A program made the translations under genes and the position numbers. This document shows, in pieces, positions 27,465 through 56,791 of a stretch of DNA of 64,000 nucleotides. The notes under the pieces were generated by a model. The model was not told the origin of the DNA and made no database searches. It was given only the letters and a program-made list of their open reading frames with translations. Numbering within the stretch: position 1 is the first letter of the stretch; each line of letters opens with the position of its first letter. The stretch is from a virus, in the IMG/VR virus record IMGVR_UViG_3300025997_000005; one strand, 5' to 3'.

Positions 27465-27550
27465 CACTTGCAGCTAACGGTTGTGTGTATGAAACGTAGC
27501 CATAGTAAACAGTTGATATAAACCACAGACCTTGATTGGGTATGTTTTAT

Positions 27551-27763
27551 AAAGGAGCGTAAAACCCATTCATCGCTTTAGCGTGAATGGGATGTAAGCG
27601 ACAAAAAGATTTGACTTTTAAAAATAAAGTTGTATATTTTTATTAACTCTGGTTGTGGTATGCAGTCGGAGTATAAACAAAAACGGGATGAGGCGTTACC
27701 ATTAGGTGAGTCTGTGACCCCCGAAGCCCAACCCATCGCCTCTGGCGTGGGTGGGTAGTTCAC
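27551..27763 (+). mobile_element. Non-autonomous IS200/IS605 derivative inserted in an attC arm
   Basis: Near-identical to 8174-8386; follows TTAT. Confidence 0.85.
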
Positions 27764-27890
27764 GTTACATTTAAACCAAATCAAATTAAATCGGTTGATA
27801 ATGATGGAACTTGGGATATTGGGGATAATAACATTTTTTCTTAAATTTGTGTGGTGGGAGAAAAAATAAAACAATGAAAGATTTGAAACA

Positions 27891-28451
27891 ATGAAAGATT
27901 TGAAACAATTTATAAAAACAACGATGCGAGAATTTTTGAATGAGAATAGAGTTTATCATTTATCCGATAATCCAAATTTAAAAATTGATAAAAACTATAA
28001 CCCGAAACAAGGACAATTGGGTAAAGGTTTTTATGTAACAAAAAATATTGATGATTGGGGTATAGAATCTATTGGAAAACGTGATTATATATATGTAATA
28101 GAAAATTTTGAGGAATTAAGAATAGCCAAACCAAATGAACAACCAAATAGGGAACAACTCGTTGATTTTGGAATTAAAAATGGGTTTTATGAAATGGATA
28201 AGGTAATTAAACCTAATGGTGATGTTGTTAAGAATTTAGATGGGAATGATTTAATTAGACCTATTGAAACTGATAAATATAAAAAATATGCAACATATAT
28301 AGACCCGATGACTGGTAGTAGTATTGATTTTTTAGAACAAGAATATTTAAAATCAAAAGGCTTTGATGGCAAAGAACCATATTATAGCAGAGATGGTCAT
28401 CAAATAATTATATGGAATTATGATAAAATCAAATTAAAAAGAATTAAATAA
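27891..28451 (+). CDS. Cassette gene: leader (FIKTTMREFLNE) + ADP-ribosyltransferase-like domain
   Basis: VYH, GKGFYVT, GFDG motifs. Confidence 0.55.
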   Translation: MKDLKQFIKTTMREFLNENRVYHLSDNPNLKIDKNYNPKQGQLGKGFYVTKNIDDWGIESIGKRDYIYVIENFEELRIAKPNEQPNREQLVDFGIKNGFYEMDKVIKPNGDVVKNLDGNDLIRPIETDKYKKYATYIDPMTGSSIDFLEQEYLKSKGFDGKEPYYSRDGHQIIIWNYDKIKLKRIK

Positions 28452-28673
28452 AGTGGGTGGGATTTTCTTTTAAATTTTTCAACCGAAATGTTGGTTAGAA
28501 CGATGAACTGAACACTTACACATAACGTTTTGCGTGTATATGCCAGGTGGCGATTAGAAGCACTTACCTTTCAATTACACAGAATGTTTGATAGAAGAAC
28601 GAATGTTGAATAAACAACAGAACTCCCACTTGCATATATACCTTGTTATAACACGTTTTTAAAAATTAAAATT

Positions 28674-29000
28674 ATGAAAAGAAATATAACCGAAACCCCT
28701 GAAAAGTGGGTAATATTAAAACTATCAAACAATTATTATAAAGTTTTTGGAACTTGGAGTGGTGATTATTTAAATGGTGACAGGTGGAAGTTAAATTCTG
28801 GAATTGAAAAAGTTGAACAAGATGCTGATTTCTATTATTTTATCGGTTTTAGCGGTAGTTGCTACAAATGTCATAAAAAGAGTTATGGAACTGCAACTTC
28901 TTATGGATTAGGTATGTTGAATAAAATAATAGAAGATAGTAATAGTCAGATTGAATTAGTTGAAGATGAGGATATTGATGATTGGTCAAATGGGTGCTAA
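28674..29000 (+). CDS. Cassette gene: phage hypothetical protein
   Basis: PEKWVIL, YYKVFGTWSG.YL.GD.WKLNSGI, GFSGSCYKC. Confidence 0.75.
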   Translation: MKRNITETPEKWVILKLSNNYYKVFGTWSGDYLNGDRWKLNSGIEKVEQDADFYYFIGFSGSCYKCHKKSYGTATSYGLGMLNKIIEDSNSQIELVEDEDIDDWSNGC

Positions 29001-29830
29001 CGTTTAGTGTATGGCAAGTAAGCCACGCACGAAACTATCAAATTACTAATAACTTAATAGAATGAACGAAACTTTAAATAACGCAGAAACCCACCATGTT
29101 TTATACACGGTGTTAGGCACAGTTTTATATCAAATTTGTGCAAAAGGAAAATATGCTTCATTTGATGGAAAAACCAAATATTATAGTAAAAACGCTTACA
29201 TTAACAAACCATCACAAGATGAAATAGATTCTTTTATTGATAAGTGCTGTAACAGTAAACATCCTAAGAATTTATATGATTTGGAAAAGGAAACAGTTGA
29301 AATATTTATTGTTGAATTGAAACTTGCTCGTTAAATAGTGTATAACGGGTTGCATATAACCTAAGTAGCGGACTTTAAAACCAAATGTTGAATATAAAAA
29401 TAAACTTGATATGAAAGAAAAATGGACAATTAACATACCTAACCCGCTATTTTGGTTATATGCTGTTATGTATCGTTTTCATAAGTGTAAATTTGAAAAT
29501 AAATTGTATGATATACCTATGGAAAACAATACAAATTTTCTAGTAACACAATGCAGATGTGGAAAAACTAATATGGTAAGAGCACACAGGGAAAGTGAAA
29601 TGTATAAGGATTGGATTAAATGATACATACCAAGTAGAACAAAATGGGCACTGCGTGTATCAAGGAACTGAAAGTGATTGTAATGAATGGCTTAAATGTC
29701 AGTTAGGGTATTGTGGCTCTCGTGCCGAATTATTAAGCACAAAACTTAATTTGGAACAATAAAGAAAAACAAAAAGAATTTTAGGGTGGAAATTTTAATT
29801 TGGAATATTTATATATATAAAGAAAATACT

Positions 29831-30418
29831 ATGAGTGAGATGAAAAACCATATTAAAACTACCTTAAAAGAATTTGTTGCTAAAATTATTAAAGAAGAAC
29901 TTGAAAATGACACATATGCTTCATTTAAAGGTGTAAAGCCATATAAAGAAAGATTATTAGATTTTAAAAATTCAATAAAAACATTCCACGATTTAGATGA
30001 TGATAAAATATTGAAATGTATTGATTTTTTTGGGTGGGAAGGATTTGAAGATGAAGAAGAAGCTTTTAAAGAATTAAAAGAAAGGGTGGAATTTTATAAA
30101 AAATTACCAAATCCTTCAATAATGTATAGAGCAGTTGGTGTTAAAAATAAAAAACTGATAGACATTGAAAATATTGGGGAACACGTTACACCATATAAAT
30201 GGGCTATTGATGGAGATATGCTTTTAATGATTGGTAGTGAGAACTGGGATAATGATGTAGTGCCTTATATAATGGAACTTAGTGTTCCTTTATCTGAAAT
30301 AGATATTATTCAAACAATAATTCAGAATTTATCATTTCCAAATGAACATGAAATAAATTTGAAAAATAAAGGAAAAGGTGCTAAATTTGTAAAAGCATAT
30401 AAATTAAAAGGTTTTTAA
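29831..30418 (+). CDS. Cassette gene: leader (IKTTLKEF...ELE) + possible ART-like domain
   Basis: ATATTTATA at 29805; MYRAV, IGEHVT, EHEI. Confidence 0.5.
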   Translation: MSEMKNHIKTTLKEFVAKIIKEELENDTYASFKGVKPYKERLLDFKNSIKTFHDLDDDKILKCIDFFGWEGFEDEEEAFKELKERVEFYKKLPNPSIMYRAVGVKNKKLIDIENIGEHVTPYKWAIDGDMLLMIGSENWDNDVVPYIMELSVPLSEIDIIQTIIQNLSFPNEHEINLKNKGKGAKFVKAYKLKGF

Positions 30419-30615
30419 AAGTGCGTTGGGAAAATTCTTTTTGTTTTTCATCACAAATGTTAAATAGAAGGACTGAACTAAGGCATGGAGCATAACGGCT
30501 GCAAATATATTGTCGTTTTAATGCAATATATTTGTTGTTAGCACCAGTACGGTAATTTAAGATAAAACTTGATTAAATGGATAATAATTAGTATATTTGT
30601 AAAAAAAATAAATTT

Positions 30616-30987
30616 ATGGAAAAACAATGGAACTGGTTTGAAAAAACCAATAAAAAAGATGCAATTAAAAATGAGTTACAACCATTAATTACTGAAATGA
30701 TTAGTGATGATGTACAGTGTTTATTTATTAGCCCACAAGTTGGCGTAATTTTAGAAGAGTGTGACAATGTGTTTATAATACCTAATGATGAAATAATCCA
30801 TCATAACGAAAATTTAACCGTAGAACATTTTTTTAATTTTTATAAAAATGATGAGCCGATAAGGGTTTACATTGATAGAAACAAAGAAGATGTTGAAATT
30901 ATTGATTTTCGTGGACATAAAGAAATTGTTAATACTTTAAGAATTGGTAGTGATGGATTTTTTACAAAATATAGCAATAAACTTTAA
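30616..30987 (+). CDS. Cassette gene, hypothetical
   Basis: Own TATATTTG promoter inside body 30537-31018. Confidence 0.65.
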   Translation: MEKQWNWFEKTNKKDAIKNELQPLITEMISDDVQCLFISPQVGVILEECDNVFIIPNDEIIHHNENLTVEHFFNFYKNDEPIRVYIDRNKEDVEIIDFRGHKEIVNTLRIGSDGFFTKYSNKL

Positions 30988-31324
30988 ATCGAAGCACTTT
31001 CGTAGTATTGGTGCTAACGGTTGGGTGTATGAGAAGGTTTGCTTGTATAAACTTTCAAATTACCACACTGTTAATAGCAAACTTTCTTATACACCTTGTT
31101 ATAACCAGTACGGTAATTTAAGATAAAACTTGATTAATTGGAAAATAATTAGTATATTTGTAAAATAATGAATTATGGAGAATAGAAGAATTATTAAAGT
31201 AGAAGTTCCAAAAGAAATTTGGGATGCACATATGTCTATTTTTAATTTTAGAAAAGATATATTAGGTGCTTGGATGGAAAGCGTTAGAAAAGTAATTAAC
31301 GAAATGACATTAACAAATTAATTT

Positions 31325-31654
31325 ATGGATAATAGTTTATTAATATTTGGTAATGAAAAACAAAATTACACTTCAGATATATTTTATATTGAAAATGATA
31401 ATGTTTATTTTACCGAAGTAAATGTTTTTAAATTAAACGGAAACATCTACGCAATAGATGATACTTGTAAAGTAGATAGAAATGATATAGTTGATGGAAT
31501 TAACAATGGTGATGATGTTATAATTAAGATAGATAGTTCTTTTTTAGTTGCAGTTATAATACCAAGGAGTTTAGAAACCAAACTAAAAAACGCAATTGAT
31601 AATGAAGATTATGAATTAGCAAAAATAATAAATGATAAAATTAAAAACAAGTAA
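31325..31654 (+). CDS. Cassette gene with C-terminal UVR (UvrB/C) motif
   Basis: LKNAIDNEDYELAKIINDKI. Confidence 0.7.
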   Translation: MDNSLLIFGNEKQNYTSDIFYIENDNVYFTEVNVFKLNGNIYAIDDTCKVDRNDIVDGINNGDDVIIKIDSSFLVAVIIPRSLETKLKNAIDNEDYELAKIINDKIKNK

Positions 31655-33036
31655 AATGGAAAATTTAACAATTAAAATCACTATTAGTGATGATGAAAAA
31701 GAAATCAAAGCTACAAACATCAATGTGGGTGATTATAAAAAAACTAAAGACTTACATGGTATCTCTTTGGTTGATGAAATGGTTAATGAATTATTATCTA
31801 CAATCGAAGCGGATAAGTAGTATTGGTTATAACGTATCGGTTGTATGGTTAGTGCGATTTAATAATAATAAACTTTAATGAAATGACAGAAGCAGAGTAA
31901 ATATTCGAAAAACACATTGGGTTAAATACTGAATTAGGTTATTTGCCTTTTGAAAGACGAACCTTTTAATTATTAACCGCCCTTTTTCTTTTATTTTTTT
32001 TGAGCGTGGGCAAATGCTTGTAAAAGCAATTATTTACAAAATAATTAAAATATTTTGCTTTTTTCTTTGGTAGTTACAAAATAAGTTATATATTTGTAGT
32101 GTAATAATTAATTAATAACAATTTAAAACACAAAATTATGAAAACTTTACATTACATCTTAAACACAAAAACAGACGAAAGCTTTGATACAATAGAAATG
32201 AAATTTTATCCTAATAATTGGGAACCTGAAATGGAAGAGGATAAAGATTATTTACAAAGCTTAATTGACGAAGACCCAGAAAAATTTAAAAACTGTATAA
32301 TCGAAACAAGAACTTTTGAATAATGGCTTACTGGTTTTTAAATAAGCAAACAAAAGAGCCGAGAATATTCTCGACTCTTTGCCTGTTATGTGTGAAGAAA
32401 TTACTGAACTTGATAAGCAAAGTTTAGAGTACCATTTTAGCAGACTGAAAAAAGAAGAATTTGAAAACGATAATTACAGAATTGTTAAGCGTAATCTTGA
32501 GAGGGGTGGAAAAAAATAAAAGAAAAAGATTAGAAGCACTAAACGTTGATACAGCACGGAATTAGGCATAAACTATATACCGTGTTGTGCAATCGTTTTA
32601 ATGTTGCACAACGTTTTTCGGCTTGGTGTCTGTTATTTTGCCTTGCAGACATTTCAAGTTTTAGATAAATTTAATAGGTAAAATAATAGCACCAAACCGC
32701 TGTTAGTGGCTGGTGCGGTAAATTAAACGAAAATGAAATTTCATAAAACAAAAGATGGTAAAAAAATTAAGTTGACTGATTTAGAAACGAATCACTTGAA
32801 AAATATCATTAAATGGATTGAACGGAAAGCAAAGGAAGGATTAACGGTAGGAATGGGCGGTGGCTCGTGTGCTGAAGATATGTGGTATGATGAGGAAACT
32901 TATTATGGCAAAGAAGCTAAAAGCCAACTTAATTTTTCAGACTACAAAGCTGAATTGAAGCGGAGAGTTAGCACTTGCCACTAACGTAGATAGGCTATGA
33001 ATAGTAAGGCGATTTTAAAACACAAAACTTTGAATT

Positions 33037-33225
33037 ATGAAATGGATTAAATTAAAAGACCGAAAGCCATCTTGCGAGATTGATGGTGAAAAGATGTTGG
33101 TTTACAGAATAATGAATGAAAGCCAAGCGAGTATGGCAATAAGCATCCTTGATACGAAGATGATTAAATACAGTAATGAGGATGAAACTTGGTGGATGGC
33201 TTTACCTGATGAACCACGAACCTAA
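33037..33225 (+). CDS. DUF551-like small protein encoded inside an attC loop
   Basis: WIKLKDRKP...WWMALPDEP; lies between hairpin arms at 32982 and 33247. Confidence 0.65.
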   Translation: MKWIKLKDRKPSCEIDGEKMLVYRIMNESQASMAISILDTKMIKYSNEDETWWMALPDEPRT

Positions 33226-34494
33226 GCCTTATTATTTATAGCCTTTGTTGTAAAATCGTTTTAATGTTTTACAACGATTTGCAGCTAACCGAAGTTGGCG
33301 ATTACGAAGCACAAAACTTGAATTTAAAAAAAATGTATAATCGAAGCATAAACGTTGATATAACCACTGAACCGCCAATTTTGGTTAGGTGCTGTTATAA
33401 GCCGTTTTTCTTCACAAATTTTAAATAAAATGTATAATAAAATACCAGATAACAAAGTAAAAGAAGCTATAAAGGATTATAGTATTACCAAATTGAAATT
33501 ATTTATAGATGCAATGGATATAGCTAATGAAAAAGCAGAAAGAGGTTCAGATGTTCGTTTCCAAACTTATGATGCTAAACAAGTAGCTATCGACTTGCTT
33601 TATGAAAAGACGTGTAGTTTCTTAAATGGCTTATAACGGAAAAATGTAAAAAATCGTTGCGATATGAATGAAGAACTATTTGGAAAACTGCACGAACAAG
33701 AAGAATATGGATTGTTTGGGAAGGAACACGAACGCCAGCAATGTTTTTTACATAGTGTTAGCACCAGTGCCTACACGAAATTAAATATTAAAACTTAAAT
33801 AAAAATACAATGGCAAAAACAGTAAAATTACCCGATAACATTTCCGAAGAAGAATTAGTAAGGCTTTCTAAAATGAAAGAACTTTATATGACATACACCA
33901 ATGAAGGATTAAAAGATGATGAGTATGAACAAATGAGGCAATTAGCAGAAGAATTATCTTACTGTTTTGCTGTCGATACGAAGGTCTGATGGCATTGGTG
34001 CTAACGGTTTGCAGATAGGCGATGTGGCGGATTTTGGAACGCTGAACTATCTGTAAGCACTTAACTTGATTTGAAACACTAAACTTAATATTAACCGAGA
34101 AACCCGCCATAGTGCTGTTATGTGCTGGCCTTCTCAAAAACTCAAATAGAATGATAAACAAAATAATTGAAATCGCATTTAGTGGCTTTTGGCCATTTGT
34201 AGGAATGATGATATTACTAAACGGAGCGGCCTATTTTGCTGTAAACGGTTTGGTAAAAATGTGGAGCAGGTTTATGAGAATGTTAATGGTTAGGAAACAT
34301 GGTTGGCCGCCTATTCATTTAGATGCTGATGGCGATTGGAAACCTGAGCCAAAAGCTGACTATGACGCTAATTAGGCTTGCACATAACGGTTGCAAATAT
34401 AAAACGTTGTAACAAAAATTATAATTAGTGTAACAAAATTTGAAATTAAACGTATAATATAATTGAAAAACGACAGCAATGTTTTATATTTGTT

Positions 34495-34611
34495 GTTATA
34501 TTTCAGTTTTGGGGATGAGTTTCAGTAAAACTCCTTGAACTATTTGCCATCTGAGAAGGATGCGGTCTGAATTAACAGATACACAATGGTTTCCCCAAAA
34601 TTGAATATAAC
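34495..34611 (+). ncRNA. ORF-less cassette, putative small structured RNA
   Basis: TTTTGGGGA/TCCCCAAAA closing stem with three internal hairpins. Confidence 0.4.
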
Positions 34612-35378
34612 GTTACGCAAGTATGAAACGTGCCAACACAAACTTTGATTGAAACAATGGACATTAAATTAACATAAATATTAACTTAGATGCAGGATAG
34701 GCATGTTTTATACTTGCTGTTAGGCATCTGTAAAAATTACGGATATGAAAGACCAAGACAAACAAATGATGAAATTTAGAGCAAAAGAAGAATTGAAGAT
34801 AAAACTTCTCAAAGTTATATTAGACTATAAAAGTGAAGAAGAACCTAAATGTGAATTAACAAGCACTGATATTATTAATGTTTTATCTTCAATGATAGTA
34901 AGACAAACTGAGTAATTTTTATTGTGCCTAACGTTTTGCGTGTATATGTCAGGGGGGCGATTAGAAGCTCTAACTTTTCAATTACGCAGAAAGTTTGACA
35001 GAAGAACTAAACTTGAATAAACCACAGAACCGCCACTTGCATATACACGCTGTTAGTGGCTGGGCTTTTCACAAAAAAAATTAAAATGACAGACGAAATT
35101 AAAAGACTGAAAAAAGAACTGAAAGACTGGAAATCTCAAGAAGTTAAAGAACGATTTGAAAGAGTTAATTCTCAACTTCATCTTGTTACTATCAATGAAT
35201 TGCAACACAAAATTAAAAGATTGAAACGTGGTGAAGATATTTAGGTCGTTCTTTAGCCTTGCCACTAACGAAAAGTTTATGGCGTGTTGCGTGAACAGAG
35301 AATTAACTTAACAAATAGATAATGAAACATAGTGAAGATATTAAAATGGAAATTGGGGGTAAATTTATAAGTAAAAAT

Positions 35379-35855
35379 ATGGAAATAAGAAAATTAATAG
35401 ATAAAGTTAAAAACTTTGGTAAAACCAAAGTGTATAAATGTGTTGATGGTGTTTACGATAAAAACCGAAGTGGTGTTGATTATTTAGCGGTTAACTTAGA
35501 TTACGCTAAAAAATTCGGTGATAATTGTTATAAAATAACCATAGATACAACAAATTATAATATTCTAAAATTAGATAAATGGAATAAAATTTATAGTGAA
35601 AAAACTGGTAAAAACGGAAATAGATTTAATAGACAACAAGGATTATTCGTAATCGGTGATATAGCAATTACATCAAATTACAAAGAAGAACTTGATTTAT
35701 TTTCAAATGTTTTGGGAGAATACTTATCAAGCAAATTTCTAACTGAATTGAATAGTTGCGATGCTATTTACGGAGAAGACGCAGGATATGTAGGTGAATT
35801 TGTTTTTGCTGTAAAAAATAAAGATATGATACTTGAAATCGAAGCACTTTCGTAG
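35379..35855 (+). CDS. Cassette gene, possible ART-like protein
   Basis: VYK, YLAVNLDYAKKFG, DAI, E motifs. Confidence 0.4.
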   Translation: MEIRKLIDKVKNFGKTKVYKCVDGVYDKNRSGVDYLAVNLDYAKKFGDNCYKITIDTTNYNILKLDKWNKIYSEKTGKNGNRFNRQQGLFVIGDIAITSNYKEELDLFSNVLGEYLSSKFLTELNSCDAIYGEDAGYVGEFVFAVKNKDMILEIEALS

Positions 35856-45409: not shown

Positions 45410-45613
45410 ATGAATAAATTAAAACAAGCACCAATGGCTAAGTATAGTAACCAAGTGCAAACAAGTAGGGATTACTCAAAGTTTAAAACTTTGATTGGTA
45501 ACAGAAAGCCAAATGAATTGCACATTAAAAGGCTAATCAGTTCATTTAAGGAACGCTATTTATTCAGTCCAATACTTGTAAATGAAAAAATGCAAATCAA
45601 TGTTGTGCTTTAG
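45410..45613 (+). pseudogene. Truncated ParB-like N-terminal fragment
   Basis: DYSKFK.LIGNR...PILVNEKMQI, cut before the expected IDGQHR by a junction at ~45600. Confidence 0.6.
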
Positions 45614-46136: not shown

Positions 46137-46316
46137 ATGAATTGGCACGAAAGATTTAAAGCAATGAAATCAGGGTTAGGATTAACTAACTCCGATATTG
46201 CTGGCATAACTGGTAATAGTGATGATTCTGTAAAGTCGATTACTCAACCAAATAAAGACATACCACGTTGGCTAAAACTCGCTATTGTAGTTTATGAACG
46301 GATGGTAGCAAAATAA
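46137..46316 (+). CDS. Small HTH protein closing a three-gene cassette
   Basis: LGLTNSDIAGITGNSDDSVKS...IPRW. Confidence 0.7.
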   Translation: MNWHERFKAMKSGLGLTNSDIAGITGNSDDSVKSITQPNKDIPRWLKLAIVVYERMVAK

Positions 46317-49300
46317 TTAAGCACAACGGTCTTGTATATGAAAAGTAGCGTGTAAATAAGCACATACTTTTCCGACTAAAATAACGTTATTAAATTAGTA
46401 AAGCAAATTGAGTTTAGCACTTATTTAGCTATTTTTTATATACGGTGTTGGCAATAGTTATTTTATTTTCGTATTATTAACAATAATTTAAGTCAAAAAT
46501 ATTTACTTTTGCACTCAATTTCACTTATATTAGTATTATGGAATTAAATTTTTTAGAAATGATAGACACAGATAAAAGGACAGACTTTTTGTTTCCAAAG
46601 AGAAGTTTTTGGACAGGTTTTTCTAATGTATTAAGCATTTTCGGAGAACCAAATAAATTTAACACTTCAAAATCAGGAGAAGAAGCAGACTACAAAGCTT
46701 TAAAATCCGATTGGGAAATGGTTGGACAAGATATTCGGAATGTAATGTCTGATGAAATTAAATTGTCAGACTGTGAGTAAACGAAAGGAGGATGATAATC
46801 ATTAGTGTTTTCATCAACTTTTTTATATCTAAATGTATTATTAAAATAATTTCTATTTTTATAAATCATCATTTTTTTTTCAAATGTGTGCCAACGTTTT
46901 GCGTGTAAGGAAATTTGCGTGCAAGTACACAGCAAGTTTCAGATTAATAACTAAAAATAATTAAAAAATAAAAATAAGTGATAAAATATTTGGAAATTTG
47001 ATTTAAATGTTTTATATTTGTTGTTATAAAATCGTAAAATTATGAACTTAGAAACTTGGATTGTAGTTGAAAATGGTGATATGTTTGAAGGAACACGAGA
47101 ACAGTTTATGGATTGTTTCTTTTCAAATGCAACAGATGAAGAAATTAAAGATTGGTGTTTTGATAATGGTTGGAAACTTAAAATAGGCGAAGAAACAATC
47201 TTTGCTTAATAATTTTATGTTTTATAACGGACAGGTATATGGTTAGTGCACCTACCACAAACTATTAAACTAAGCACTGACCTTCATTGGTACATTAACT
47301 ATATACAATGTTGTGTGCCGTTAATTTTAGAATTATGAGAACTGGATATTTTGCAAACACAAAAACAACAACAAAAACACATTTGGTAGATAGCAATAAT
47401 AAACCAATATGTAAAAGTAACATCAGAAATAAAACTTTTCAATGGTGTGCAAACGGTGTAATGTACTCTTACATTGAATGCAATACTTGCAAAACAAAAG
47501 CAAAACAACTATTGGAGCAAGAGGTTAAAGACCGTTTGCGTTAATGGCACACAACGATGAGGCTAAGAAACGTAGCCTTGTAATCACGTTTCAAAATAGG
47601 TAGGAACTTTATTGGCTATGTTTTTTAGCCTGTGTTACCACCAGTTAATTTAATAATTATGTTTAAAATTTACAAAGGATATTTGAAATGGAAAATGATT
47701 TCCTTAATCAAGGATAAAATAATACACTACACAGTTGAAAAAAACAATTATTTACAACGACAAAATGAATGGGAAAAGAAAGAATATAAACCAAATAGAT
47801 GTTCAGATGAAGCAAGGTTTGAAAAAGAAAAAGCAGAACAAATAAGATGGTCTAATGAACAATATAAAGTAAACCATTTTAAAGGTGAGGCTGTTTTAGA
47901 AATACTCCGAATGGTTGAGAACCTTTAATTGGTGGTAACGGGTTGTGTATGAAACGTGGTGGAATAGAAACCACATAACTATCAAATTACTAATAACTTA
48001 ATAGAATGAACGAAACTTTAAATAACGCAGAAACCCAGCATGTTTTATATTGCGTGTTGTGCGTAGTGCTTTAATAATCAAAACGATGGAACAAATTTAT
48101 TATTGGATTGGATTAGTAGTTTTTTGGCTTTCTGCAATAATTGGAAGCGTAGTAGCAGTAGGATATTTAAGTAAACTTCTACTTGATAAATTAGGTAGGC
48201 AGATAAAAACTACTTGGATAATTGTTGAGTTTGCTTATTATCGAAAAGAGTTTAAAGAGTGGGTTAAAGACAAAAAACGGCATCCGAAGTGCAAATCTTA
48301 GCATTACGCACAACGTTTTGCGTATATACAAGGTACGCCTTAACGAAATTTCAATTATAAACAAATGCTTGTAGGCGTATCTTGTATATACGCTGTTAGC
48401 AGATAGTAAAAATTACGGATTATGAAAGAAAAACATATTTGTTCTGCTACTGTAAATGACAAAACAAGTAGGCAGATTATGAGTAAAATGATAAACGGAT
48501 TTTCTGATGAAATATGTGGGTTTAATGCTAAATACTTTGAAAATAATAATTGGTATTGTGGCAAACACGCACCAAGTAAAATAGCAGAACGAGAACGAAT
48601 AAGTTATGAAAAGTGGAAAGCTAAAATTGAAGCACGAAAGCAGTAATTTTTATTTCTGCTAACGGTACGCAAGTATAAAACGTGCCAACACAAACTTTGA
48701 TTGGAACAATGAATTTGAAATTAACATAAATATTAACTTAGATGCACGACAGGCATGTTTTATACTTGCTGTTAGGCATCTGTAAAAATTACGTATATGG
48801 AACAAAAAGTAAAACACGATATTTATAAGATGCTGATACCAATAATTGGTACATGGTGGGTAATAAAGCGAATATTGCCTGATTTGGGTGAAATAACATG
48901 GTGGGATATATCTAAATATTCAATTCCATTAACATTCGGATTAGTGATGTATCAGGCGATATGTTGGATAGGGTACAAAGTGTTTTACATGATGTACTTT
49001 TTTGATTACACATTTGAACAAGTATTTACGCAATGGTAGTAATTTTTATTGTGCCTAACGGACGAGTGTATGGCAAGTGCCTACACAGAACTTAATTAAT
49101 AATACAAAATATTGAAATTATGAAACAAATTATCAAAAGAATACAAAAGGCATTTGCTATACACATTGTTAGCAAACGTTTTAAGATTGAATTTTTAATG
49201 GATGGAAATTTAGAACCATTACACACAACTTACTTGGAAGGTAAGAATAAAAATGACGTAGAAAAAAGGTTTGATAGACTTGATTTAGAAAGCAGACGAG

Positions 49301-49749
49301 ATATTGTTAGTGTAAATGTTTGCTAACGTTTTGCAAATAAAAACAGTAAAAGATATGAAACGACAAATTTTAAAAATAGCAGATGAACTTGCCAATGATG
49401 TAATAACTACGGAACAGGCAAAAAACCTTTTATTGGTTTTATTTGATGTTAGCCACAGTACTTCTTACTTAGATGATAAGTACGAGGTTAAATGGCTAAT
49501 AAATAATACATACCAAGTAGAACAAAATGGGCACTGCGTGTATCAAGGAACTGAAAGTGATTGTAATGAATGGCTTAAATGTCAGTTAGGGTATTGTGGC
49601 TAACGTGCCGAGTATATGAAATGTAGCGTGTAAACAGCCGAAAAGCAACGATTAAGAGCTGAATTAAATAAATAGAATATTAACCAAGTGGGAAGCGAAA
49701 ACAGCTATATTTTATATACTGTGTTACCCACTTTTAAAAATAGCGGTAA

Positions 49750-50052
49750 ATGAAAGCTAAACTAGAAAAATATAACGGAATTGATTACTTGACTTTTAAA
49801 GTAAATGAAGAAATTGGATTAACACAACTTCCTGTAATTACAAAAGGAACACGAGAAGGCACAAATGCTTGGACTTGGAACGGTGATTTGGAAAAACCAA
49901 CACTAAGACCAAGCGTAAGAACAGGCTACTACAATGGTAAAGAAACGACGGAAATACATTACTGGCTTAATGATGGAATTGCTGATTGCTTGGGCGATTG
50001 CAAAGATGGAAATGCAGGTAAAAAACTTGCCTTAATGGAACTCGAACAGTAG
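49750..50052 (+). CDS. DUF6527-like protein (cassette)
   Basis: WTWNGDLEKPTLRPSV, H.WLNDG. Confidence 0.7.
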   Translation: MKAKLEKYNGIDYLTFKVNEEIGLTQLPVITKGTREGTNAWTWNGDLEKPTLRPSVRTGYYNGKETTEIHYWLNDGIADCLGDCKDGNAGKKLALMELEQ

Positions 50053-50701
50053 CCATTTTTTATTGTGGCTAACGGTTGCGTGTATATTCAGGTTTGCTTG
50101 TAGAGACCTTGAATTATGCACAAATGCTGATGCAAACTTGAATATACACGTTGTTATGCTCTCGTTGCGGTAAATTTACTCAAACCCTTCAATCGAAGCA
50201 CTAAAAACATTTTTATTCTTTTGTGTGATGGGGAAAATAATTATATTGATTATCAACATATTAGAAAATATATTGAAAATATTTGCAAATTTATTAGGTA
50301 ATTTGAAACAAAAGTATTACCTTTGACGTATAAATTAATAAACAACTTAAAATTTAAAGGTATGACAAATTCAGAATTAAACAAATTATCAGTTGCTGAA
50401 CTTAGGGAGTTAAGAAATAGAGTAACTGAAATGCTTCAATTGAAAATGCAAATTGAAGGTAAATTAAACAAGGATGTTTTAAAATTTGGTATGACCGTTA
50501 AATATATTGGTGGTCGTGATAAAATTAAAAACGAAACTTTTGTAATCGAAAGAATTAACAAAGTGAATGCTGTTTGTAAAAGTAATGTAGATGGAAGACG
50601 TTGGAATATTAATATTGCAAACATTCAACCATGTGAAGATTTAATAGAAACAATGGGAGATGATAATTATGAACCAGAAAGTGGTTTCCAAAAATAAAAT
50701 T

Positions 50702-50887
50702 ATGGCAAAGCGAATATCATTAAAATTAACTGACAAAAATGATTGGTTAGTTGAAGCAATAAATAAGGAAATTGATGAAACGAATAGACCATCATTTAAT
50801 AATATGGTTGAAACCATTCTTGTTTCTTATTTTAAAGCGAAGGAAGAAAAGAATAAAAATGTTACCACAAATGCTAATTCGGAGTAG
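50702..50887 (+). CDS. Small ribbon-helix-helix protein closing a cassette
   Basis: KRISLKL...SFNNMVETIL. Confidence 0.6.
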   Translation: MAKRISLKLTDKNDWLVEAINKEIDETNRPSFNNMVETILVSYFKAKEEKNKNVTTNANSE

Positions 50888-50942
50888 TTCCTTAGCAATG
50901 GAGCATAACGGACAATAATAAACAATCGTAAAATTATGACTT

Positions 50943-51209
50943 ATGAAAAAATTTAAAGGAAGCAAACACTCACATGCTAAATGGGTGGCAGAAGAATTAT
51001 TTAATGAGATGCAAAACACAGTTGATGAAGCAGCAGAATTGTTTGCTTCTGATATTTATAGCATAGCCAAGTGTTGCTCTTATAAAGCTATTGAACTAAA
51101 TAAACTAGCAGTTCTTGACGGATGGGGTTATAAAGAGGTTTGTAATCAAACACAAGAGCAACACGACTTTTGGGAACTCGTGAAATCATATTTAGATGAC
51201 ATTAAATAA
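50943..51209 (+). CDS. Hypothetical protein encoded inside an attC loop
   Basis: Between arms at 50906 and 51230; followed by a 29-bp empty body. Confidence 0.7.
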   Translation: MKKFKGSKHSHAKWVAEELFNEMQNTVDEAAELFASDIYSIAKCCSYKAIELNKLAVLDGWGYKEVCNQTQEQHDFWELVKSYLDDIK

Positions 51210-51864
51210 TTTTATGTTGTTTATTTATTGTTGTGGTGTCGTTTTAATGCAGCACAACGTTAAGTATATGGCAAGTTGGGGATTAAAATGTGCTACCCTT
51301 TTAATTTGCAGAAAAGTAAATTAAAAGCACAAATGTAGTTTATTGGAATTGCGCCCCAATTTGCTATATACATTGTTAGGCGCAGTTATTTTTAAAATTA
51401 TGACAACAAAAAAATTAGTGAACTTAATGATGAAATCTTCTGACCACAATCCATATACTGGTAAGCTGTCAGAAAGTGCTAATGTATTGGCTGCAATAGA
51501 ACTTGCAAAAAAGTTTAAGGAATTTGCAGACGAAGTATATACAGACGAGGCAATGGGTATTGAAAGCAGCCAATGGGTTGAAGTGATAAACAAACTTGAA
51601 GAGAAGCGACTTAATTGCGCCTAACGGTTGGGTGTATATGTAGTAGTGGATAGAAAGAACCGAGCTTTGATTAACCACTGAACTTCATAGAAACAACTAA
51701 CGTTGATTTACAGATGAAACCACCATTACATATACACCTTGTTATGACCAGTACGGTTTATTTACCACAAAACTCGATTAGAACCACTGAACAAAACTTT
51801 TTAAAAATGTGCGGTGGGAAATTTAATTATGAATATTTATATATAAGATAAAGTATTTACTTAT

Positions 51865-52341
51865 ATGGAAAACGACAAATTAAGAAGTTTTATAAAAACG
51901 ACAATCAGAGAATTTCTAAATGAGAATGTTAAAGGTAAAACAATATACCATTTTACTGATGGTTTGGATTCATTATATTCAATTTTGAAAGGTGACTCAT
52001 TAGAATCTGGTTCATTTAATGGTATTTATGGTAAAGGATATGATAATATTTCCTTTACTTGGAATCCAAAATTATGGGATATTGAGTATGCTGGTGATAG
52101 CAATGGTAGATATAATGCAAGAATATCATTTGACTATGGTAGAATTAGTCAGAAATGGAATTTTAAACCATTTAATTACGGTATAGATGAGGAAATGGAA
52201 GAAATAGTTGAAACTGATGAAATGCACGGAATTGTTGCATATATTACAGAAATTCTTATTAGTGATGAAGAATCTATGTTAGAGATTAATAATTTGAAAC
52301 GTTCTTATCCGAATTTAAATATTAGAACAATTAAAAGGTAG
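51865..52341 (+). CDS. Cassette gene: leader (FIKTTIREFLNE) + ART-like domain
   Basis: ATATTTATA at 51833; IYHFT, L.SIL, ISFT, EMEE. Confidence 0.55.
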   Translation: MENDKLRSFIKTTIREFLNENVKGKTIYHFTDGLDSLYSILKGDSLESGSFNGIYGKGYDNISFTWNPKLWDIEYAGDSNGRYNARISFDYGRISQKWNFKPFNYGIDEEMEEIVETDEMHGIVAYITEILISDEESMLEINNLKRSYPNLNIRTIKR

Positions 52342-52466
52342 GAAATTTTTAAAAAGTTTTGAAACAAAAACCCAATTAGAACGTATAATATAGTATTGGT
52401 CATAACGTATCGCAGATATGGAGTCGATTTTTTACGGATTTAAAACACACTAAAATAATTATTATT

Positions 52467-52712
52467 ATGAGAAAAGAAGAAATACTTAGGAAGCATTTTA
52501 AAGTTGAATTTGGACACGAGGGACATGGTAAATTTATGCAGTATATTTTAGCAGCAATGGATGAGTATGCAAAACAGGAAGTAAAAAAATGCTCTATACC
52601 TGCTGTTGTAGGGAGAAGCGAACAGTTAAAATGCGAACACAAAGGGCGCAGAACAGCAACTGAACTCGTGGAATATTGCGAAGATTGCAAAAAGATACTT
52701 TTCCATCCGTAG
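52467..52712 (+). CDS. Loop-to-body fusion ORF with the same zinc-finger module as 40522
   Basis: Near-identical 3' half, unrelated 5' half. Confidence 0.75.
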   Translation: MRKEEILRKHFKVEFGHEGHGKFMQYILAAMDEYAKQEVKKCSIPAVVGRSEQLKCEHKGRRTATELVEYCEDCKKILFHP

Positions 52713-53726
52713 CATTTTAATTGCCTACAACGTTGAGTATATAATTTCGTTGTTGCTTAACAGCACGACACTAACAAAATAAGATAAAGATGAAGAAAGC
52801 AAAAAGAATCCAAAAACGCAGAACCCACAACAATGAATTATATACATTGTTAACTACTGGCGTTTTACAAGAACTTAACTTTAAGGACATTGGACAGAGT
52901 GAATTTGAGTTATTTGAAAACATGAGTTATTGGATAAAGAATAGTATTTGCCTATTCTATAACACCCCAATAAATAAAGATTGGCAAGATAGCTTTTATA
53001 TAGGATATGCTGAAATGAGGCAAGGCAAATACGTTGCTGTTACTTTTAGATGGATTGATAGTGTAGAAGAACTAACTCAAATTTACGAGAGTATAACACG
53101 AAAGAAAATAGATGAGCCGATTTAACGGTTGTAGTTAACGGCTGGCGGTATGAAAAGTTGCGTTTTTAACCGCACGAACTTCTACTAACCGATGAACGTT
53201 AAATAAATGTAGAAACTTAAATATTAACCGCTGACCCCGCAATTTTTTATGACCGCTTGTTATAGTGCGTTTTCTGCGGGTAGGCATTAAAACTAATAAA
53301 ATGGCAAATTTATATGTAAAAGAAATTGGATTGCTTAATATCAAAGAAAGCAAAGAGGAAGTTTTAATTGAGCTAAAAAATGAAAATCCTGAGTGGGCTG
53401 AATATACAGTTATAGAAAGTTTTTATGGTGAAATGAGCGGAAAAACTCACACAAATGAAAAACTATTAACTATACGAACAAGAAATATAATTGCAGTTGA
53501 ATAGTGCGGTAGGAAAATGCACTATAACGGTTGGGTGTATGAGAAGGTTTGCTTGTAGAAACTTTCAAATTTACCACTACCGTTGATAGCAAACTTTCTT
53601 ATACACCTTGTTATGCTCTCGTGCCGACTTATTAAGCACAGAACTTGATTTGAAATACGAAAGAAAAACAAAAAGAATTTTAGGTGGATTTTTTTAAATT
53701 TGAATATTTATATATAAAAGAAAACA

Positions 53727-54236
53727 ATGAATGATTTGAAAAAGTTTATAGCAACCACAATAAGAGAATATTTGAACGAAACTTCAAAATCTATTGTAAC
53801 TTATAATAATGATACTGTAATTAAGAAATTTAATGACAAATATGAATTAGAAAATACTATTAAATATTTTCCAAACCATCCTAATTTATTTCCTATAATT
53901 TATAATATTAATGGAGACGAAATAGAAATTGAAAGATTAGATACTAAAAAAGCAATAAAAGAATTTAATATATTAAATAATTGGTTTAAGAAAAATCTTA
54001 AAATATCTTTTGGTTCATATTTAATGAGAGATTATACTTTCAAACATATCTATCCAGATAGACCATATCCGAAATTACCATCAGATTTTCCAAAAGAATA
54101 TAAACAAATACTTGATAAGTATCAAAAACTAATTAATGATATAATGAAAATTGTTGGTAAATATTTCTTACTTGATGTTCATTCATTAAATTTTGGATAT
54201 GATAAAAATGGAAATTTAAAAATGTTTGATATTTAA
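53727..54236 (+). CDS. Cassette gene: leader (FIATTIREYLNE) + protein kinase-like domain
   Basis: ATATTTATA at 53704; VIKK, DVHSLNFG catalytic-loop-like, MFDI. Confidence 0.65.
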   Translation: MNDLKKFIATTIREYLNETSKSIVTYNNDTVIKKFNDKYELENTIKYFPNHPNLFPIIYNINGDEIEIERLDTKKAIKEFNILNNWFKKNLKISFGSYLMRDYTFKHIYPDRPYPKLPSDFPKEYKQILDKYQKLINDIMKIVGKYFLLDVHSLNFGYDKNGNLKMFDI

Positions 54237-55587
54237 AAAATATTTAGTATCTTTGTTGTGTGTTGGTAAAATTCTTTTTGTTTTTCATCACAAATGTTAA
54301 ATCGAAGAACTGAACTAAGGCATGGAGCATAACGACTGCGTGTATGTTGTCGTTGCGGTAAATTAGTATAAACTTTAATAAATGAACGAAATGAAAAAAC
54401 TTTGGAAATGGTTATTTGGAAAACGAAAACAGCAATGCAATATACACGATGTTGTGTGTAGTGCGACCACTGAAAGGAAACCAAACCCATATATGCTGTT
54501 GTGGTATAAACAAGGTTGGAGTGAAAAAAGAATTGCTATTAATAACTCAAAGTATTGGAAATGGGAGATAGACCACAACGGTTTTCGTCCATAGCATTAC
54601 ACACAACGTTGGTAATATGAAAAGTTGGCTTTGCAGCCACTTTCAAGTTACCAAACAGTTTGATAGCCAATTTTTTATATTACGTGTTATCGCTTCGGGT
54701 TTTATTAATCTTTTAAATTAAAATATATGATAGTCAGAATTAAACTAAAATCAAAAGGAGAAACATTCACAATGATGTTTGGAAATTCTTATAAAAATTG
54801 GGAAGAGCAATTTCGTGAATATTGCTTTACTTTCAAACCAATAGAAATAATTCAAATTGAAACATCTCCTGAAAAATGGAAAGGTTGGGGAGGGTTGAAG
54901 TGGTGCAATGAAACAGAGTTTCAACACGAATTAAACCGTGAGGGTTGTCAGCAAAATGAACCAGATAATCCTAAACCAAGAAAGTATGAATATATGAGAT
55001 TCAATTCAAATCAAATTGTTTCAAATATTGCCAATAAGATTGCTCGTAGGTATCTTTAACCTGAGCGATAACGTTTTGTGGCTTTGTGTCTGTTATTTTG
55101 GCTTGCAGACACTTGCCTTTAAAGATAAATTTTATAGCCAAAATAATAGCACAAAACCACTGTTAGTGGCTGGTGCGGTAAATTAAACGAAAATGAAATT
55201 AACAGAAGAACAATTTAATGAGCAGTATGGTGAAGCAAAAGTTGTTTTCGCCTATTATTACAAGTATTCATTCTCATTTGTGGGTGAATTTGAAGGTAAA
55301 ACGATAAATATTAGTGTAGGTGGCAACGCTGATGATATTTATAGATTTGATGTTGAATCTAACAAAGAATATCAAGTAAAGGAATTAGGTATTAATTATG
55401 CCACCGTAAAAGAAGGCGAAACAACTATTGCTGAATTTACAGACGGATGGTAGCACTTGCCACTAACGGACAGGTATATGAAAAGTAGCCTGACCACAAA
55501 CTTTGATATTATGCACCGAACTTTCATAGGCTATTTTTTATATACCATGTTAGCTGTCTGGTGCGGATTTAAACGATAAACTTTGAT

Positions 55588-56421
55588 ATGGAAAACGAAC
55601 GTAGTAATAATATTTTTTTGAGCGGTGGCAAAAATGGTTTTGAAAAAACCAAGAACGTTCTTTGGTATGGAGAATGCCTTCAGTTAATGAAACAGATACC
55701 CGACCAAAGCATAAACCTTATTTGTTGTGATTTGCCGTATGGGGTGACTAAAAACAAATGGGATTCATTAATTGATTTGGATTTACTTTGGAAGCAATAT
55801 GAACGGGTAATTATTGAAAATGGTGCAATAGTTCTTTTTGGGCAGGATAAATTTTCTGCAAGGTTGATGCTCTCAAATGAAAAGCTACACAGATATAATT
55901 TGGTATGGCAAAAAACAACACCAACTGGACACTTGAATGCTAAAAAAATGCCTTTGAGAAGCCACGAAGATATATTGGTGTTCTACAAGAAATTACCGAC
56001 CTATAACCCACAAAAAACAACAGGACACGAAAGGAAGGTAAGCACCGCAAAGCATAAGCGAAACTCGAAAAAGACAACCAACTATGGTGAACACGGACTT
56101 ACTACCTATGATAGTACTGAACGATACCCAAAAAGTGTTTTGACTTTTGCAACGGATAAACAGAAATCTGCATTACACCCAACACAAAAACCACTGGAGT
56201 TGATTAAGTATCTTGTAAGAACTTACTCAAATGAAAATGATTGGGTACTTGATAATACTTGTGGAAGTAACACTACTGGTCTTGGTTGTTTTGAATTAAA
56301 CCGAAACTATATTGGAATTGAAAATGATTTTGATATGTACGAAATTTCAAAAGAGCGGGTGGGAGAAAAAAATATTATTACGGCTTATACGCACGAACCT
56401 TCAATTAAAACGGGAACGTAG
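55588..56421 (+). CDS. DNA amino-methyltransferase (N6-A/N4-C, beta class; cassette)
   Basis: DLPY, HPTQKP, VLDNTCGSNTT, YIGIE. Confidence 0.92.
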   Translation: MENERSNNIFLSGGKNGFEKTKNVLWYGECLQLMKQIPDQSINLICCDLPYGVTKNKWDSLIDLDLLWKQYERVIIENGAIVLFGQDKFSARLMLSNEKLHRYNLVWQKTTPTGHLNAKKMPLRSHEDILVFYKKLPTYNPQKTTGHERKVSTAKHKRNSKKTTNYGEHGLTTYDSTERYPKSVLTFATDKQKSALHPTQKPLELIKYLVRTYSNENDWVLDNTCGSNTTGLGCFELNRNYIGIENDFDMYEISKERVGEKNIITAYTHEPSIKTGT

Positions 56422-56734
56422 CACTTGCAGCTAACGATAAAGCTAAACACCGTCTGAGGCGGATAAATAATGAAAACTATGATAATAGAACTAACAAAAA
56501 CAGAAACACGAGCCTTGAAATGGTTGCTTCATAAAGGCATGGAAATAACCAAGAGCGACCAAAAATACGAGGTGTTTGATGCTTTGAGCCAACGACTAGC
56601 CTCAGATGGTGATTTAGCTGATGTTGTAGGGCGAAGCGAACAGTGCGCCCATCCGAGAGATAAGCGTGAGTATATAGGCTCTAATATGCTTAGATGTAAA
56701 GTTTGCGGCAAAGAGTTCAGTTAGGGCGCATTGC

Positions 56735-56770
56735 CTACAACAACACTTATACACAATATATAAAAACGTC
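56735..56770 (-). promoter_or_regulatory. Putative attI-like site
   Basis: Last core CTACAAC is not followed by G or a hairpin; minus strand reads TGTGTATAAGTGTT-GTTGTAG; directly upstream of the integrase ATG. Confidence 0.55.
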
Positions 56771-56791
56771 AATAAAAACAACAACTTTAAA

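What the first reader, a model, noticed from the sequence alone, without database searches (positions are those of the whole stretch)
27475..56741. Cassette ORFs are antisense to the attC polarity
Seen: G.T wobbles form on the + strand (they would be A.C mismatches on minus); the short 5-bp core-to-arm spacer and the conserved C-GTT are on the minus strand; homologous bodies keep their LEFT hairpin but not the right one (32609/55069 with bodies 32702/55162; 34608/48660 with 34719/48771). So the mobile unit is left hairpin + body and the array reads leftward from the integrase, yet every credible ORF points toward the integrase. Known: canonical cassettes are read away from attI from the Pc promoter. 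Inference: expression comes from phage read-through or internal promoters, the hairpin becomes a 5' leader, and insertion at attI would not raise expression.
Basis: partly seen in the sequence, partly recalled or inferred. Interest (0 to 1): 0.85.

Follow-up and report, generated by a model that had tools for sequence, protein, structure and literature searches.

The report
Phage gene-cassette array built backwards
A large marine phage carries about 55 small genes as integron-like swappable cassettes, but the genes lie on the DNA strand that folds and is exchanged and point towards the recombinase gene, the reverse of bacterial integrons.

Summary
Between 25482 and 56741 lie about 55-60 imperfect hairpins of the form X-[T/C]AAC...GTT[A/G]-X'. 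A 269-aa Xer/XerA-like tyrosine recombinase gene (56792-57601, + strand) follows the last core.

- **Folding strand:** in 53 curated sites the + strand forms 160 G·T pairs against 37 on the minus strand. It is the more stable strand in 43 of 49 sites.
- **Exchange point:** near-identical relatives diverge exactly at the left core of a hairpin or at the lone core beside the recombinase. The unit is therefore left hairpin plus body, and arrays grow at the recombinase end.
- **Gene direction:** every credible ORF in this array is on the + strand, pointing at the recombinase.
- **Relatives:** a few cassettes (SOD, 4HBT thioesterase, a 356-aa gene) point the other way, while their hairpins keep the same polarity.
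- **Enzyme:** the recombinase is not an IntI, because it lacks the IntI-specific insertion.

I found no paper describing this system. Earlier notes of this scan reported the same system, and the same reversed stacking, on other phage DNA.

The parts
25482..56741 (+). Whole cassette array. About 55-60 hairpin sites alternate with bodies.
   Evidence: Site scans, left-end sequence, right-end sequence.
25482..25575 (+). Most distal, degenerate hairpin site (GTAAC...TTATACAATTT-GTTAGCCCAGTACG).
   Evidence: Sequence read directly.
25719..27464 (+). C5 cytosine methyltransferase gene (581 aa). It shares its 5'UTR with first codons, and its last 87 nt, with the unrelated N6/N4 methyltransferase cassette at 55588-56421.
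   Evidence: Pfam PF00145; self-BLAST blocks 25685-25761/55555-55630 and 27393-27479/56350-56436.
27475..27548 (+). Hairpin site whose 3' arm is cut off by an inserted 218-bp IS200/605-derived miniature element (27546-27763).
   Evidence: Sequence; 97% identical copy at 8169-8386 and matches to both ends of the IS at 22835-24676.
32609..32705 (+).
   Evidence: Alignment A3. Homology starts at the AAC of the left core and ends at the next TAAC.
34608..34722 (+). Hairpin of the second named pair; its paralogue is 48660-48774.
   Evidence: Alignment A4 and self-BLAST block 34608-34764/48660-48816 at 90%.
43854..43942 (+). Typical site: TAAC-GGACA-GGTATATG...loop...TTATATACC-AT-GTTA. Paralogue at 55464-55552.
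   Evidence: Fold of both strands gives -12.7 kcal/mol (+) against -10.1 (minus).
40937..42022 (+). C5 cytosine methyltransferase cassette (361 aa).
   Evidence: Pfam PF00145, E = 3e-42.
55588..56421 (+). N6/N4 DNA methyltransferase cassette (277 aa), second-last body before the recombinase.
   Evidence: Pfam PF01555.
56432..56626 (+). Last complete hairpin (191-nt spacing). An 84-aa ORF starts in its loop.
56738..56741 (+). Last, lone core (CAAC), the exchange point of the docking site.
   Evidence: L006 is 99.9% identical to the window from 56738 rightwards only.
56742..56791 (+). attI-like docking segment between the lone core and the recombinase start codon (ACTTATACACAATAT...ACTTTAAAATG).
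   Evidence: Conserved in L002/L004, L093, L094-L098, L099, L101 and L213, although their recombinases are only 51-67% identical.
56792..57601 (+). Tyrosine recombinase, 269 aa, Xer/XerA-like, not IntI.
   Evidence: Pfam PF00589. NCBIfam: XerA 136 bits, integron integrase TIGR02249 72 bits against a cut-off of 265. PDB alignments. Catalytic residues R131, K156, H217, R220, H243 and Y253 are invariant in 25 homologues.
22840..24624 (.). IS200/IS605 element (tnpB on the minus strand, tnpA on the plus strand) left of the array. It is not part of the system.
   Evidence: Pfam PF01385/PF07282 and PF01797.

Best explanation
This is a phage-borne, integron-like gene-capture system run by a short Xer/XerA-type tyrosine recombinase.

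Each cassette, read on the + strand, is [C - hairpin - GTTA-X' - short leader - ORF - X-TAA]. The hairpin (attC-like) folds in the + strand, which is also the coding strand of the cassette genes and of the recombinase gene. Strand exchange takes place in the 5'-AA|C-3' of the core at the 5' foot of that hairpin.

The docking site (attI-like) is a lone core plus a conserved ~50-nt segment immediately upstream of the recombinase start codon. New cassettes therefore enter at the recombinase-proximal end.

As a free circle a cassette looks like a classical integron cassette (ORF, stop, R box, hairpin, R box, leader). It is opened on the other side of the hairpin, so in the array the hairpin precedes its gene and the genes point towards the docking site and the recombinase.

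Shown here: the site anatomy, the folding bias, the exchange points, the ORF direction and the non-IntI nature of the enzyme. Inferred: that this recombinase is the catalyst, that the substrate is single-stranded DNA, and that expression comes from read-through or cassette-borne promoters.
For: - **Circle-junction logic.** The 7 nt outside the cores are complementary across the body (mean 4.4 of 7, mostly 5-6) and not across the hairpin (2.1 of 7, the chance level).
- **Folding strand.** G·T counts are 160 on the + strand against 37 on the minus strand in the window, and 54 against 10 in relatives. The + strand is more stable in 43 of 49 sites. Classical attC sites show the same bias for their recombined bottom strand: 1.24 against 0.39 G:T per site (PMC5027507, read).
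- **Exchange points.** Three natural comparisons map the break to the left core or the lone core: L004 against L002, L094-L098 and L006 against the window. Inside the window, 8 of 11 core-anchored ends of paralogous blocks lie at the left core.
- **Array end.** In every lineage examined the array ends at the recombinase side with a body abutting a lone core, never with a hairpin.
- **DNA rather than the cassette's own mRNA.** Hairpins beside minus-strand genes (4HBT, SOD, the 356-aa gene of L093) keep the + strand bias, 14 G·T against 1. The polarity therefore follows the recombinase and not the gene.
- **ORF direction.** Shown by the coding score. Stop codons end a median of 11 nt before the next left core.
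- **Linkage.** The recombinase gene and the conserved docking segment sit together at the array end in several lineages whose recombinases are 51-67% identical.
Against: - Three of 11 core-anchored block ends lie at the right core, so exchange is not confined to one core.
- Only one clean natural event (L004/L002) lies at an internal hairpin. The others are at the docking site.
[quoted passage not shown] Strand choice therefore cannot be assumed to work as in IntI.
- The enzyme lacks the IntI insertion that holds the I2 helix, to which the gain of single-strand recombination is attributed (PMC7790495 abstract, seen).
- The + strand is also the sense strand, so part of the G·T bias could reflect RNA folding.
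- No biochemical or expression data exist.
Confidence: 0.8

Rival explanations
1. Classical polarity. The + strand is the integron 'top' strand, each cassette is an ORF plus its downstream (right-hand) hairpin, exchange is at G|TT of the right core, and the recombinase merely sits at the far end of the array.
For: ORFs are followed closely by a hairpin, as in classical cassettes. The longer arm is the 5' arm of the + strand, which resembles the arm that carries the extrahelical bases in the classical top strand. Three block ends lie at right cores.
Against: Every high-identity natural breakpoint lies at the left core or at the lone core beside the recombinase. The G·T and stability biases favour the + strand as the folded strand. 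No recombinase or docking site exists at the left end, only an IS200/605 element. The conserved docking segment always sits next to the recombinase.
Confidence: 0.04
2. The hairpins are RNA or regulatory elements (terminator, processing or leader stem-loops, like the PeSL modules of T4-type phages). Genes are shuffled by homologous or illegitimate recombination between them, and the neighbouring recombinase is only the phage's lysogeny integrase.
For: The G·U-compatible bias is on the sense strand. Hairpin plus 5'UTR modules are shared between unrelated ORFs. Homologous recombinases sit in ordinary-looking 40-50 kb phage genomes near the terminase gene.
Against: Breakpoints fall within a 4-nt core, which is too short for homologous exchange. 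Flanks pair across the body as expected for excised circles. Hairpins beside minus-strand genes keep the + strand bias. The lone core plus conserved segment beside the recombinase is itself a variable junction in natural populations. No Rfam family matches the hairpins.
Confidence: 0.06
3. No fixed polarity. Either strand can fold and either core can be exchanged, and the co-orientation of genes with the recombinase is produced only by selection for read-through transcription in a one-directional phage genome.
For: Block ends occur at both cores, 8 left and 3 right. Relatives carry cassettes in both gene orientations. All flanking phage genes are on the + strand.
Against: Hairpin polarity is uniform. 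In 51 of 53 window sites and all 14 sites in relatives the longer spacer is on the 5' arm and the G·T bias is on the + strand, whatever the gene direction. Minus-strand events would invert the hairpin together with the gene, and no inverted hairpin was seen.
Confidence: 0.08

Closest known systems
Classical integrons (IntI integrase, attI, attC cassettes; sedentary chromosomal integrons such as the Vibrio cholerae superintegron)
   Same: - Long array of small, mostly promoterless-looking cassettes separated by imperfect hairpins with AAC/GTT cores.
- R-box flanks that pair only in the excised circle.
- Exchange in the AAC of the better-folding, G:T-rich strand.
- A lone-core docking site beside a divergently placed tyrosine recombinase gene, judged relative to site polarity.
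   Different: - The enzyme is Xer/XerA-like and lacks the IntI insertion.
- The extra unpaired bases sit on the arm that carries the exchanged AAC.
- The R box extends to about 13 bp.
- Nearly all ORFs lie on the exchanged strand and point towards the docking site, so no Pc-type promoter at attI can drive them.
- The host replicon is a phage.
attC clusters (CALINs) and integron fragments reported in phage genomes (Qi et al. 2023, PMC9892861)
   Same: Cassette-associated hairpin sites in phages, including a Polaribacter (Flavobacteriia) phage, and methyltransferase cargo.
   Different: Those are sites found with IntI-type models and tested with IntI1, in clusters of a few sites and mostly without a recombinase. 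That paper does not describe a Xer-like recombinase, a docking site or reversed gene polarity.
PeSL (promoter-early stem-loop) modules of T4-type phages
   Same: Stem-loop plus leader modules lie between small accessory genes in a phage hyperplastic region, and shuffling is associated with them.
   Different: As I recall (not checked here), PeSL shuffling is thought to be homology-driven with no dedicated recombinase. Here there are 4-nt exchange cores, circle-junction flanks and a linked recombinase with a docking site.
Xer-dependent modules (pdif modules of Acinetobacter plasmids; IMEX such as CTX phage using folded ssDNA with XerCD)
   Same: A Xer-type tyrosine recombinase acts on small modules. 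CTX shows that Xer enzymes can use a folded single strand.
   Different: As I recall (not checked here), pdif sites are 28-bp duplex sites in alternating orientation, and IMEX integrate at the chromosomal dif site. Neither forms hairpin-separated arrays beside its own recombinase gene.

Membership tests
Integron (sensu stricto) | IntI-clade integrase with the additional domain or I2 helix between the catalytic Lys and the HxxR box | tested here: not met
   The protein has 269 aa. TIGR02249 scores 72 bits against a cut-off of 265 and aligns only to profile positions 9-180. Against VchIntIA (2a3v), query residues 157-212 face chain residues 161-262, so about 46 residues are missing. The alignment to XerA (5hxy) is continuous.
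Integron (sensu stricto) | Array of cassettes bounded by imperfect-palindrome sites with RYYYAAC / GTTRRRY-type cores | tested here: met
   53 curated sites with [T/C]AAC...GTT[A/G] cores and paired arms.
Integron (sensu stricto) | attI docking site adjacent to the integrase gene, where cassette content varies | tested here: met
   A lone core plus a conserved segment lies upstream of the recombinase. Natural variants diverge exactly there.
Integron (sensu stricto) | Exchange in the AAC of the folded bottom strand, which carries more G:T pairs than the top strand | tested here: inconclusive
   The breakpoint position and the G·T and stability biases fit. Single-strand chemistry itself cannot be shown with sequence tools.
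Integron (sensu stricto) | Extrahelical bases on the arm opposite the exchanged AAC | tested here: not met
   Extra unpaired nt are 183 on the arm next to the exchanged AAC and 30 on the other arm. The classical geometry is taken from PMC5027507.
Integron (sensu stricto) | Cassette ORFs in the sense of the array, read away from attI (Pc-driven) | tested here: not met
   All credible ORFs in the window point towards the docking site. By gene calls, relatives have 54 ORFs pointing towards it and 6 pointing away.
Xer/XerA-type tyrosine recombinases | Two-domain tyrosine recombinase of about 260-300 aa with the R-K-H-R-H-Y catalytic set; best profile match Xer | tested here: met
   Best NCBIfam match is XerA_Arch (136 bits, below its equivalog cut-off of 220, so it is not an orthologue). 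Best PDB matches are XerA 5hxy and 4a8e. The catalytic residues are invariant.
Xer chromosome-dimer resolution system | Acts at a 28-bp dif-type duplex site | not tested
   No dif-like site was looked for. The context is a phage cassette array.

The most novel reading that the evidence does not exclude
A 'strand-inverted integron'. A Xer-type enzyme without the IntI I2 helix recombines folded single-stranded hairpins on the coding (non-template) strand, so arrays are built towards the recombinase gene. Each captured gene brings its own hairpin as a 5' leader and regulatory module. This would mean that integron-style single-strand cassette capture evolved independently of IntI, or predates it, in Bacteroidota phages. 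It would also mean that expression logic (position relative to a Pc promoter) is not an essential part of such systems.
Probability: 0.35. Interest if true: 0.88.

Novelty: new variant of a known kind. Interest (0 to 1): 0.74.

Why it matters
Integron biology rests on two linked ideas. One is that the IntI-specific domain allows recombination of a folded single strand. The other is that strand choice places each new gene in sense behind the Pc promoter.

This system has the same site logic (cores, circle-junction flanks, a G:T-rich folding strand, a docking site beside the enzyme gene), but it uses a Xer-like enzyme without that domain and places the genes the other way round. If confirmed at the bench, it would separate cassette capture from promoter-driven expression. 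It would also offer a natural test of what really sets strand selectivity.

It would further show that phages own large private gene-swapping platforms. This one holds about 55 cassettes, including three DNA methyltransferases, which are plausibly anti-restriction cargo.

The reversed polarity also matters for annotation. Tools that assume ORF-then-attC would assign each hairpin to the wrong gene.

Tried and rejected
- **Searches for more relatives.** Searching IMG/VR with the recombinase protein gave no close relative. The JGI metagenome scan gave only the window's own phage (L006) and relatives of 37% identity or less. The species-genome scan gave nothing close. A degenerate docking-site pattern in IMG/VR gave 118 stretches, of which one (L213) was genuine.
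- **Promoter hypothesis.** TAnnTTTG is not enriched on the + strand of the array (22 against 29), so a general Bacteroidota-type promoter in each cassette is not supported. About eight cassette leaders have a well-placed box.
- **Leader motif.** GTRCGGTWWAWTTA after the right core occurs 8 times, only inside the array and only on the + strand. It is therefore part of a cassette subfamily and not a general phage promoter.
- **Rfam.** No family matches the hairpins.
- **First guess dropped.** I first took SOD and 4HBT in L004 for host genes flanking a prophage. I rejected that because both are bounded by hairpin sites with matching flanks.
- **L006.** I considered that it shows an empty docking site. 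I rejected that because its left flank has a proper cassette-type X-CAAC end and a restriction endonuclease gene.


Full report
**Setting.** The window is AT-rich (about 30% G+C) and phage-like. Almost all genes are on the + strand. They include two sigma factors, PRPP synthetase, phosphatase, RNA-ligase and kinase genes, and a tRNA cluster. A 269-aa tyrosine recombinase gene lies at 56792-57601 on the + strand. An IS200/IS605 element (tnpB and tnpA) lies at 22840-24624. Small + strand ORFs separated by repeated imperfect hairpins fill the space from about 25.5 kb to the recombinase.

**Site anatomy.** I curated 53 sites, and a few more are visible by eye. On the + strand each reads: aATTG-N5-[T/C]AAC-G-(4-6 nt)-GTGTATG...loop (about 40 to more than 450 nt)...TATACAC-(1-3 nt)-GTT[A/G]-N6-GT.
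- The G after AAC is as conserved as the core.
- The unpaired spacer is much longer on the 5' arm: 183 extra nt against 30 on the 3' arm. Fifty-one of 53 sites have the longer 5' arm, and the two exceptions were wrong partner choices that I corrected.
- The seven bases outside the cores do not pair across the hairpin (2.1 of 7, the chance level). They do pair across the body that follows (4.4 of 7 overall, 5-6 of 7 wherever no site was missed).

This is the signature of units that exist as circles and are opened at a core, as in integron cassettes. The signature is symmetric, so on its own it does not tell which hairpin belongs to which body.

**Which strand folds.** Aligning each 5' arm with the reverse complement of its 3' arm gives 988 matches and 160 + strand G·T pairs. 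Only 37 pairs would be G·T on the minus strand, and 37 are transversions. Two G·T positions are fixed in the stem. A third conserved T·G lies in the extended R box (offsets -7 and +10). With DNA parameters the + strand is more stable in 43 of 49 sites, by 2.0 kcal/mol on average, p = 1e-8.

Nivina et al. 2016 report the same kind of bias for the recombined bottom strand of classical attC sites: 1.24 against 0.39 G:T per site, with the bottom strand more stable (PMC5027507). Fourteen sites in relatives show the same pattern, 54 against 10. The three hairpins that lie beside minus-strand genes keep the + strand bias (14 against 1). The bias therefore follows the recombinase and not the sense of the neighbouring gene. 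This argues for a DNA-level substrate and against folding of each gene's own mRNA.

**Where exchange happens.** The recombinase has about 25 homologues at 51-67% identity in marine metagenomes. Their contigs show the same layout: hairpins on the recombinase strand, an array upstream, a lone core, and then a conserved ~50-nt segment ending in the start codon. Three natural comparisons locate the exchange point.
1. L004 and L002/L003/L092 encode the identical recombinase P0021. They are 100% identical from the 'CAAC|GG' left core of one hairpin rightwards, through the hairpin, the 4HBT gene, the last core, the docking segment and the recombinase. They are unrelated to the left of that core. L004 has an Fe/Mn superoxide dismutase cassette there. 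The hairpin therefore travels with the body on its recombinase-proximal side.
2. Five contigs with the identical recombinase P0011 (L094-L098) are identical from 'TAAC|GTTACTTATATACAATATC...' rightwards and carry four different sequences to the left. A contig of another lineage, L100, starts exactly at this core.
3. L006 is the window's own phage at 99.9% identity. It matches the window only from 56738, the last CAAC, rightwards.

Inside the window, paralogous blocks of at least 80% identity have 8 ends at left cores and 3 at right cores. It resumes for the last ~20 nt up to the next TAAC and stops there. In every lineage the array ends at the recombinase side with a body abutting the lone core, never with a hairpin. 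That is what the unit [C-hairpin-GTTA-X'-body-X-TAA] predicts.

**Gene direction.** I scored ORFs with a codon-usage log-odds trained on 15 genes of at least 150 aa outside the array. The 81 + strand ORFs of at least 45 aa in the array average +0.22 (training genes +0.33). The 54 minus-strand ORFs average -0.18. Only five minus-strand ORFs score above zero, and the highest (0.13) lies inside a 170-aa + strand ORF. Stops of + strand ORFs end a median of 11 nt (interquartile range 9-16.5) before the next left core. Starts lie a median of 20 nt after the right core, and 19 start inside the hairpin.

All credible genes in this array therefore lie on the strand that folds and is exchanged, and all point at the recombinase. 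This is not an absolute rule of the family. SOD and 4HBT in L004/L002, a 356-aa gene in L093 and a HindVP-type restriction endonuclease next to the docking site in L006 are on the other strand. By gene calls the relatives have 54 ORFs pointing towards the recombinase and 6 pointing away.

**The enzyme.**
- NCBIfam: the best match is XerA (136 bits, below its equivalog cut-off of 220). XerC and XerD score 77 and 76 bits. Integron integrase TIGR02249 scores 72 bits against a cut-off of 265 and aligns only to the part before the IntI insertion.
- PDB: the alignment to XerA (5hxy) is continuous. Against VchIntIA (2a3v), query residues 157-212 face chain residues 161-262, so about 46 residues, the region of the IntI-specific domain, are absent.
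- Catalytic residues R131, K156, H217, R220, H243 and Y253 are invariant in 25 homologues.

The gain of single-strand recombination by IntI is attributed to the I2 helix (PMC7790495 abstract). Either this enzyme achieves it differently or the chemistry differs. The spacers next to the core vary between sites and differ from that of the docking site. This would disfavour a classical two-strand exchange with branch migration. That last point is inference.

**Comparison with the classical integron.**
- Same: cores, circle-junction flanks, a G:T-rich folding strand, exchange in the AAC at the 5' foot of that strand, a docking site beside the enzyme gene, and an enzyme gene transcribed away from the array relative to site polarity.
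- Different: the enzyme family, the placement of the unpaired bases, the longer R box, and above all the genes on the exchanged strand.

In circle form a cassette here is indistinguishable in layout from a classical one. It is simply opened on the other side of its hairpin.

**Expression.** TAnnTTTG boxes are not enriched on the + strand (22 against 29). Some leaders do have one 22-50 nt before the start, for example at 30592, 31153, 32089 and 53695. A leader motif GTRCGGTWWAWTTA is confined to 8 cassettes.

**Prior knowledge.** Qi et al. 2023 (PMC9892861) reported integron fragments and small attC clusters in phages, found with IntI-type models. They describe no Xer-like enzyme, no docking site and no reversed polarity. 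Four full-text searches found no description of this system.

Earlier AI notes of this scan describe the same kind of system on other phage DNA (e1-3423632, e1-5340526, e1-3640844, e1-5659434, e1-5340602). One of them, e1-5340590, reaches the same conclusion about reversed stacking. I did not use these notes as evidence. Everything above was tested on this window and its relatives.

**Verdict.** This is a new variant of the integron idea that I could not find in the literature. Its mechanism and expression await bench tests.

Noticed in passing
window 27546-27763; copies at 8169-8386 (97%), partial at 21603-21661, 60098-60150, 2317-2430, 58417-58442: A 218-bp miniature element derived from both ends of the IS200/IS605 at 22835-24676 is scattered through the phage. 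One copy sits in the 3' arm of the hairpin that starts at 27475 and removes that site's right core.
   Followed up: partly
L006:1-1318 against window 56738 and 63159-63554: In a 99.9% identical variant of this phage, the DNA left of the docking-site core holds a HindVP-type restriction endonuclease gene on the minus strand (Pfam E = 1e-111). Next comes window 63554-63159 in reverse orientation. The junction in the window is at ATAACAAC (63159), possibly a secondary site or an inversion.
   Followed up: partly
window 31829-32587 and 43026-43484; L093:7447-8140; L101:6581-7099; L213 (reverse) about 2480-3240: A hairpin family with a 450-700 nt loop that holds ORFs is conserved in several phages. 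In the window both copies are followed by a 25-nt 'empty' body (GTTG-TAAAATCGTTTTAATGTTTTA-CAAC). The same TCGTTTTAATG also forms the loop of short empty hairpins (30493-30540, 37600-37647).
   Followed up: partly
window 25685-25761 / 55555-55630 and 27393-27479 / 56350-56436: A C5 methyltransferase (581 aa) and an N6/N4 methyltransferase (277 aa) share 92% identical leaders with first codons and 92% identical last 87 nt, while the enzymes between are unrelated. The same 'shell with a different payload' is seen in pairs 32609/55069 and 34608/48660.
   Followed up: partly
window 32713, 37655, 38517, 40881, 43951, 50165, 51751, 55173: The motif GTRCGGTWWAWTTA lies 10-15 nt after the right core in eight cassettes. 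It occurs only on the + strand and only inside the array (8 found, 0.9 expected).
   Followed up: yes
L094-L098, L100: Metagenome assemblies of relatives break at or within a few hundred bases upstream of the docking-site core, which is consistent with array heterogeneity in natural populations.
   Followed up: partly
window 29617-29728 against 49500-49611: A 97% identical copy of a cassette tail in which the left core is mutated (TAAC to TCTC) and no hairpin follows. It looks like a cassette fusion by loss of a site.
   Followed up: no
window 58633-58706 and 2107-5658: One tRNA gene lies about 1 kb downstream of the recombinase. A cluster of eight tRNA genes lies near the start of the window.
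   Followed up: no
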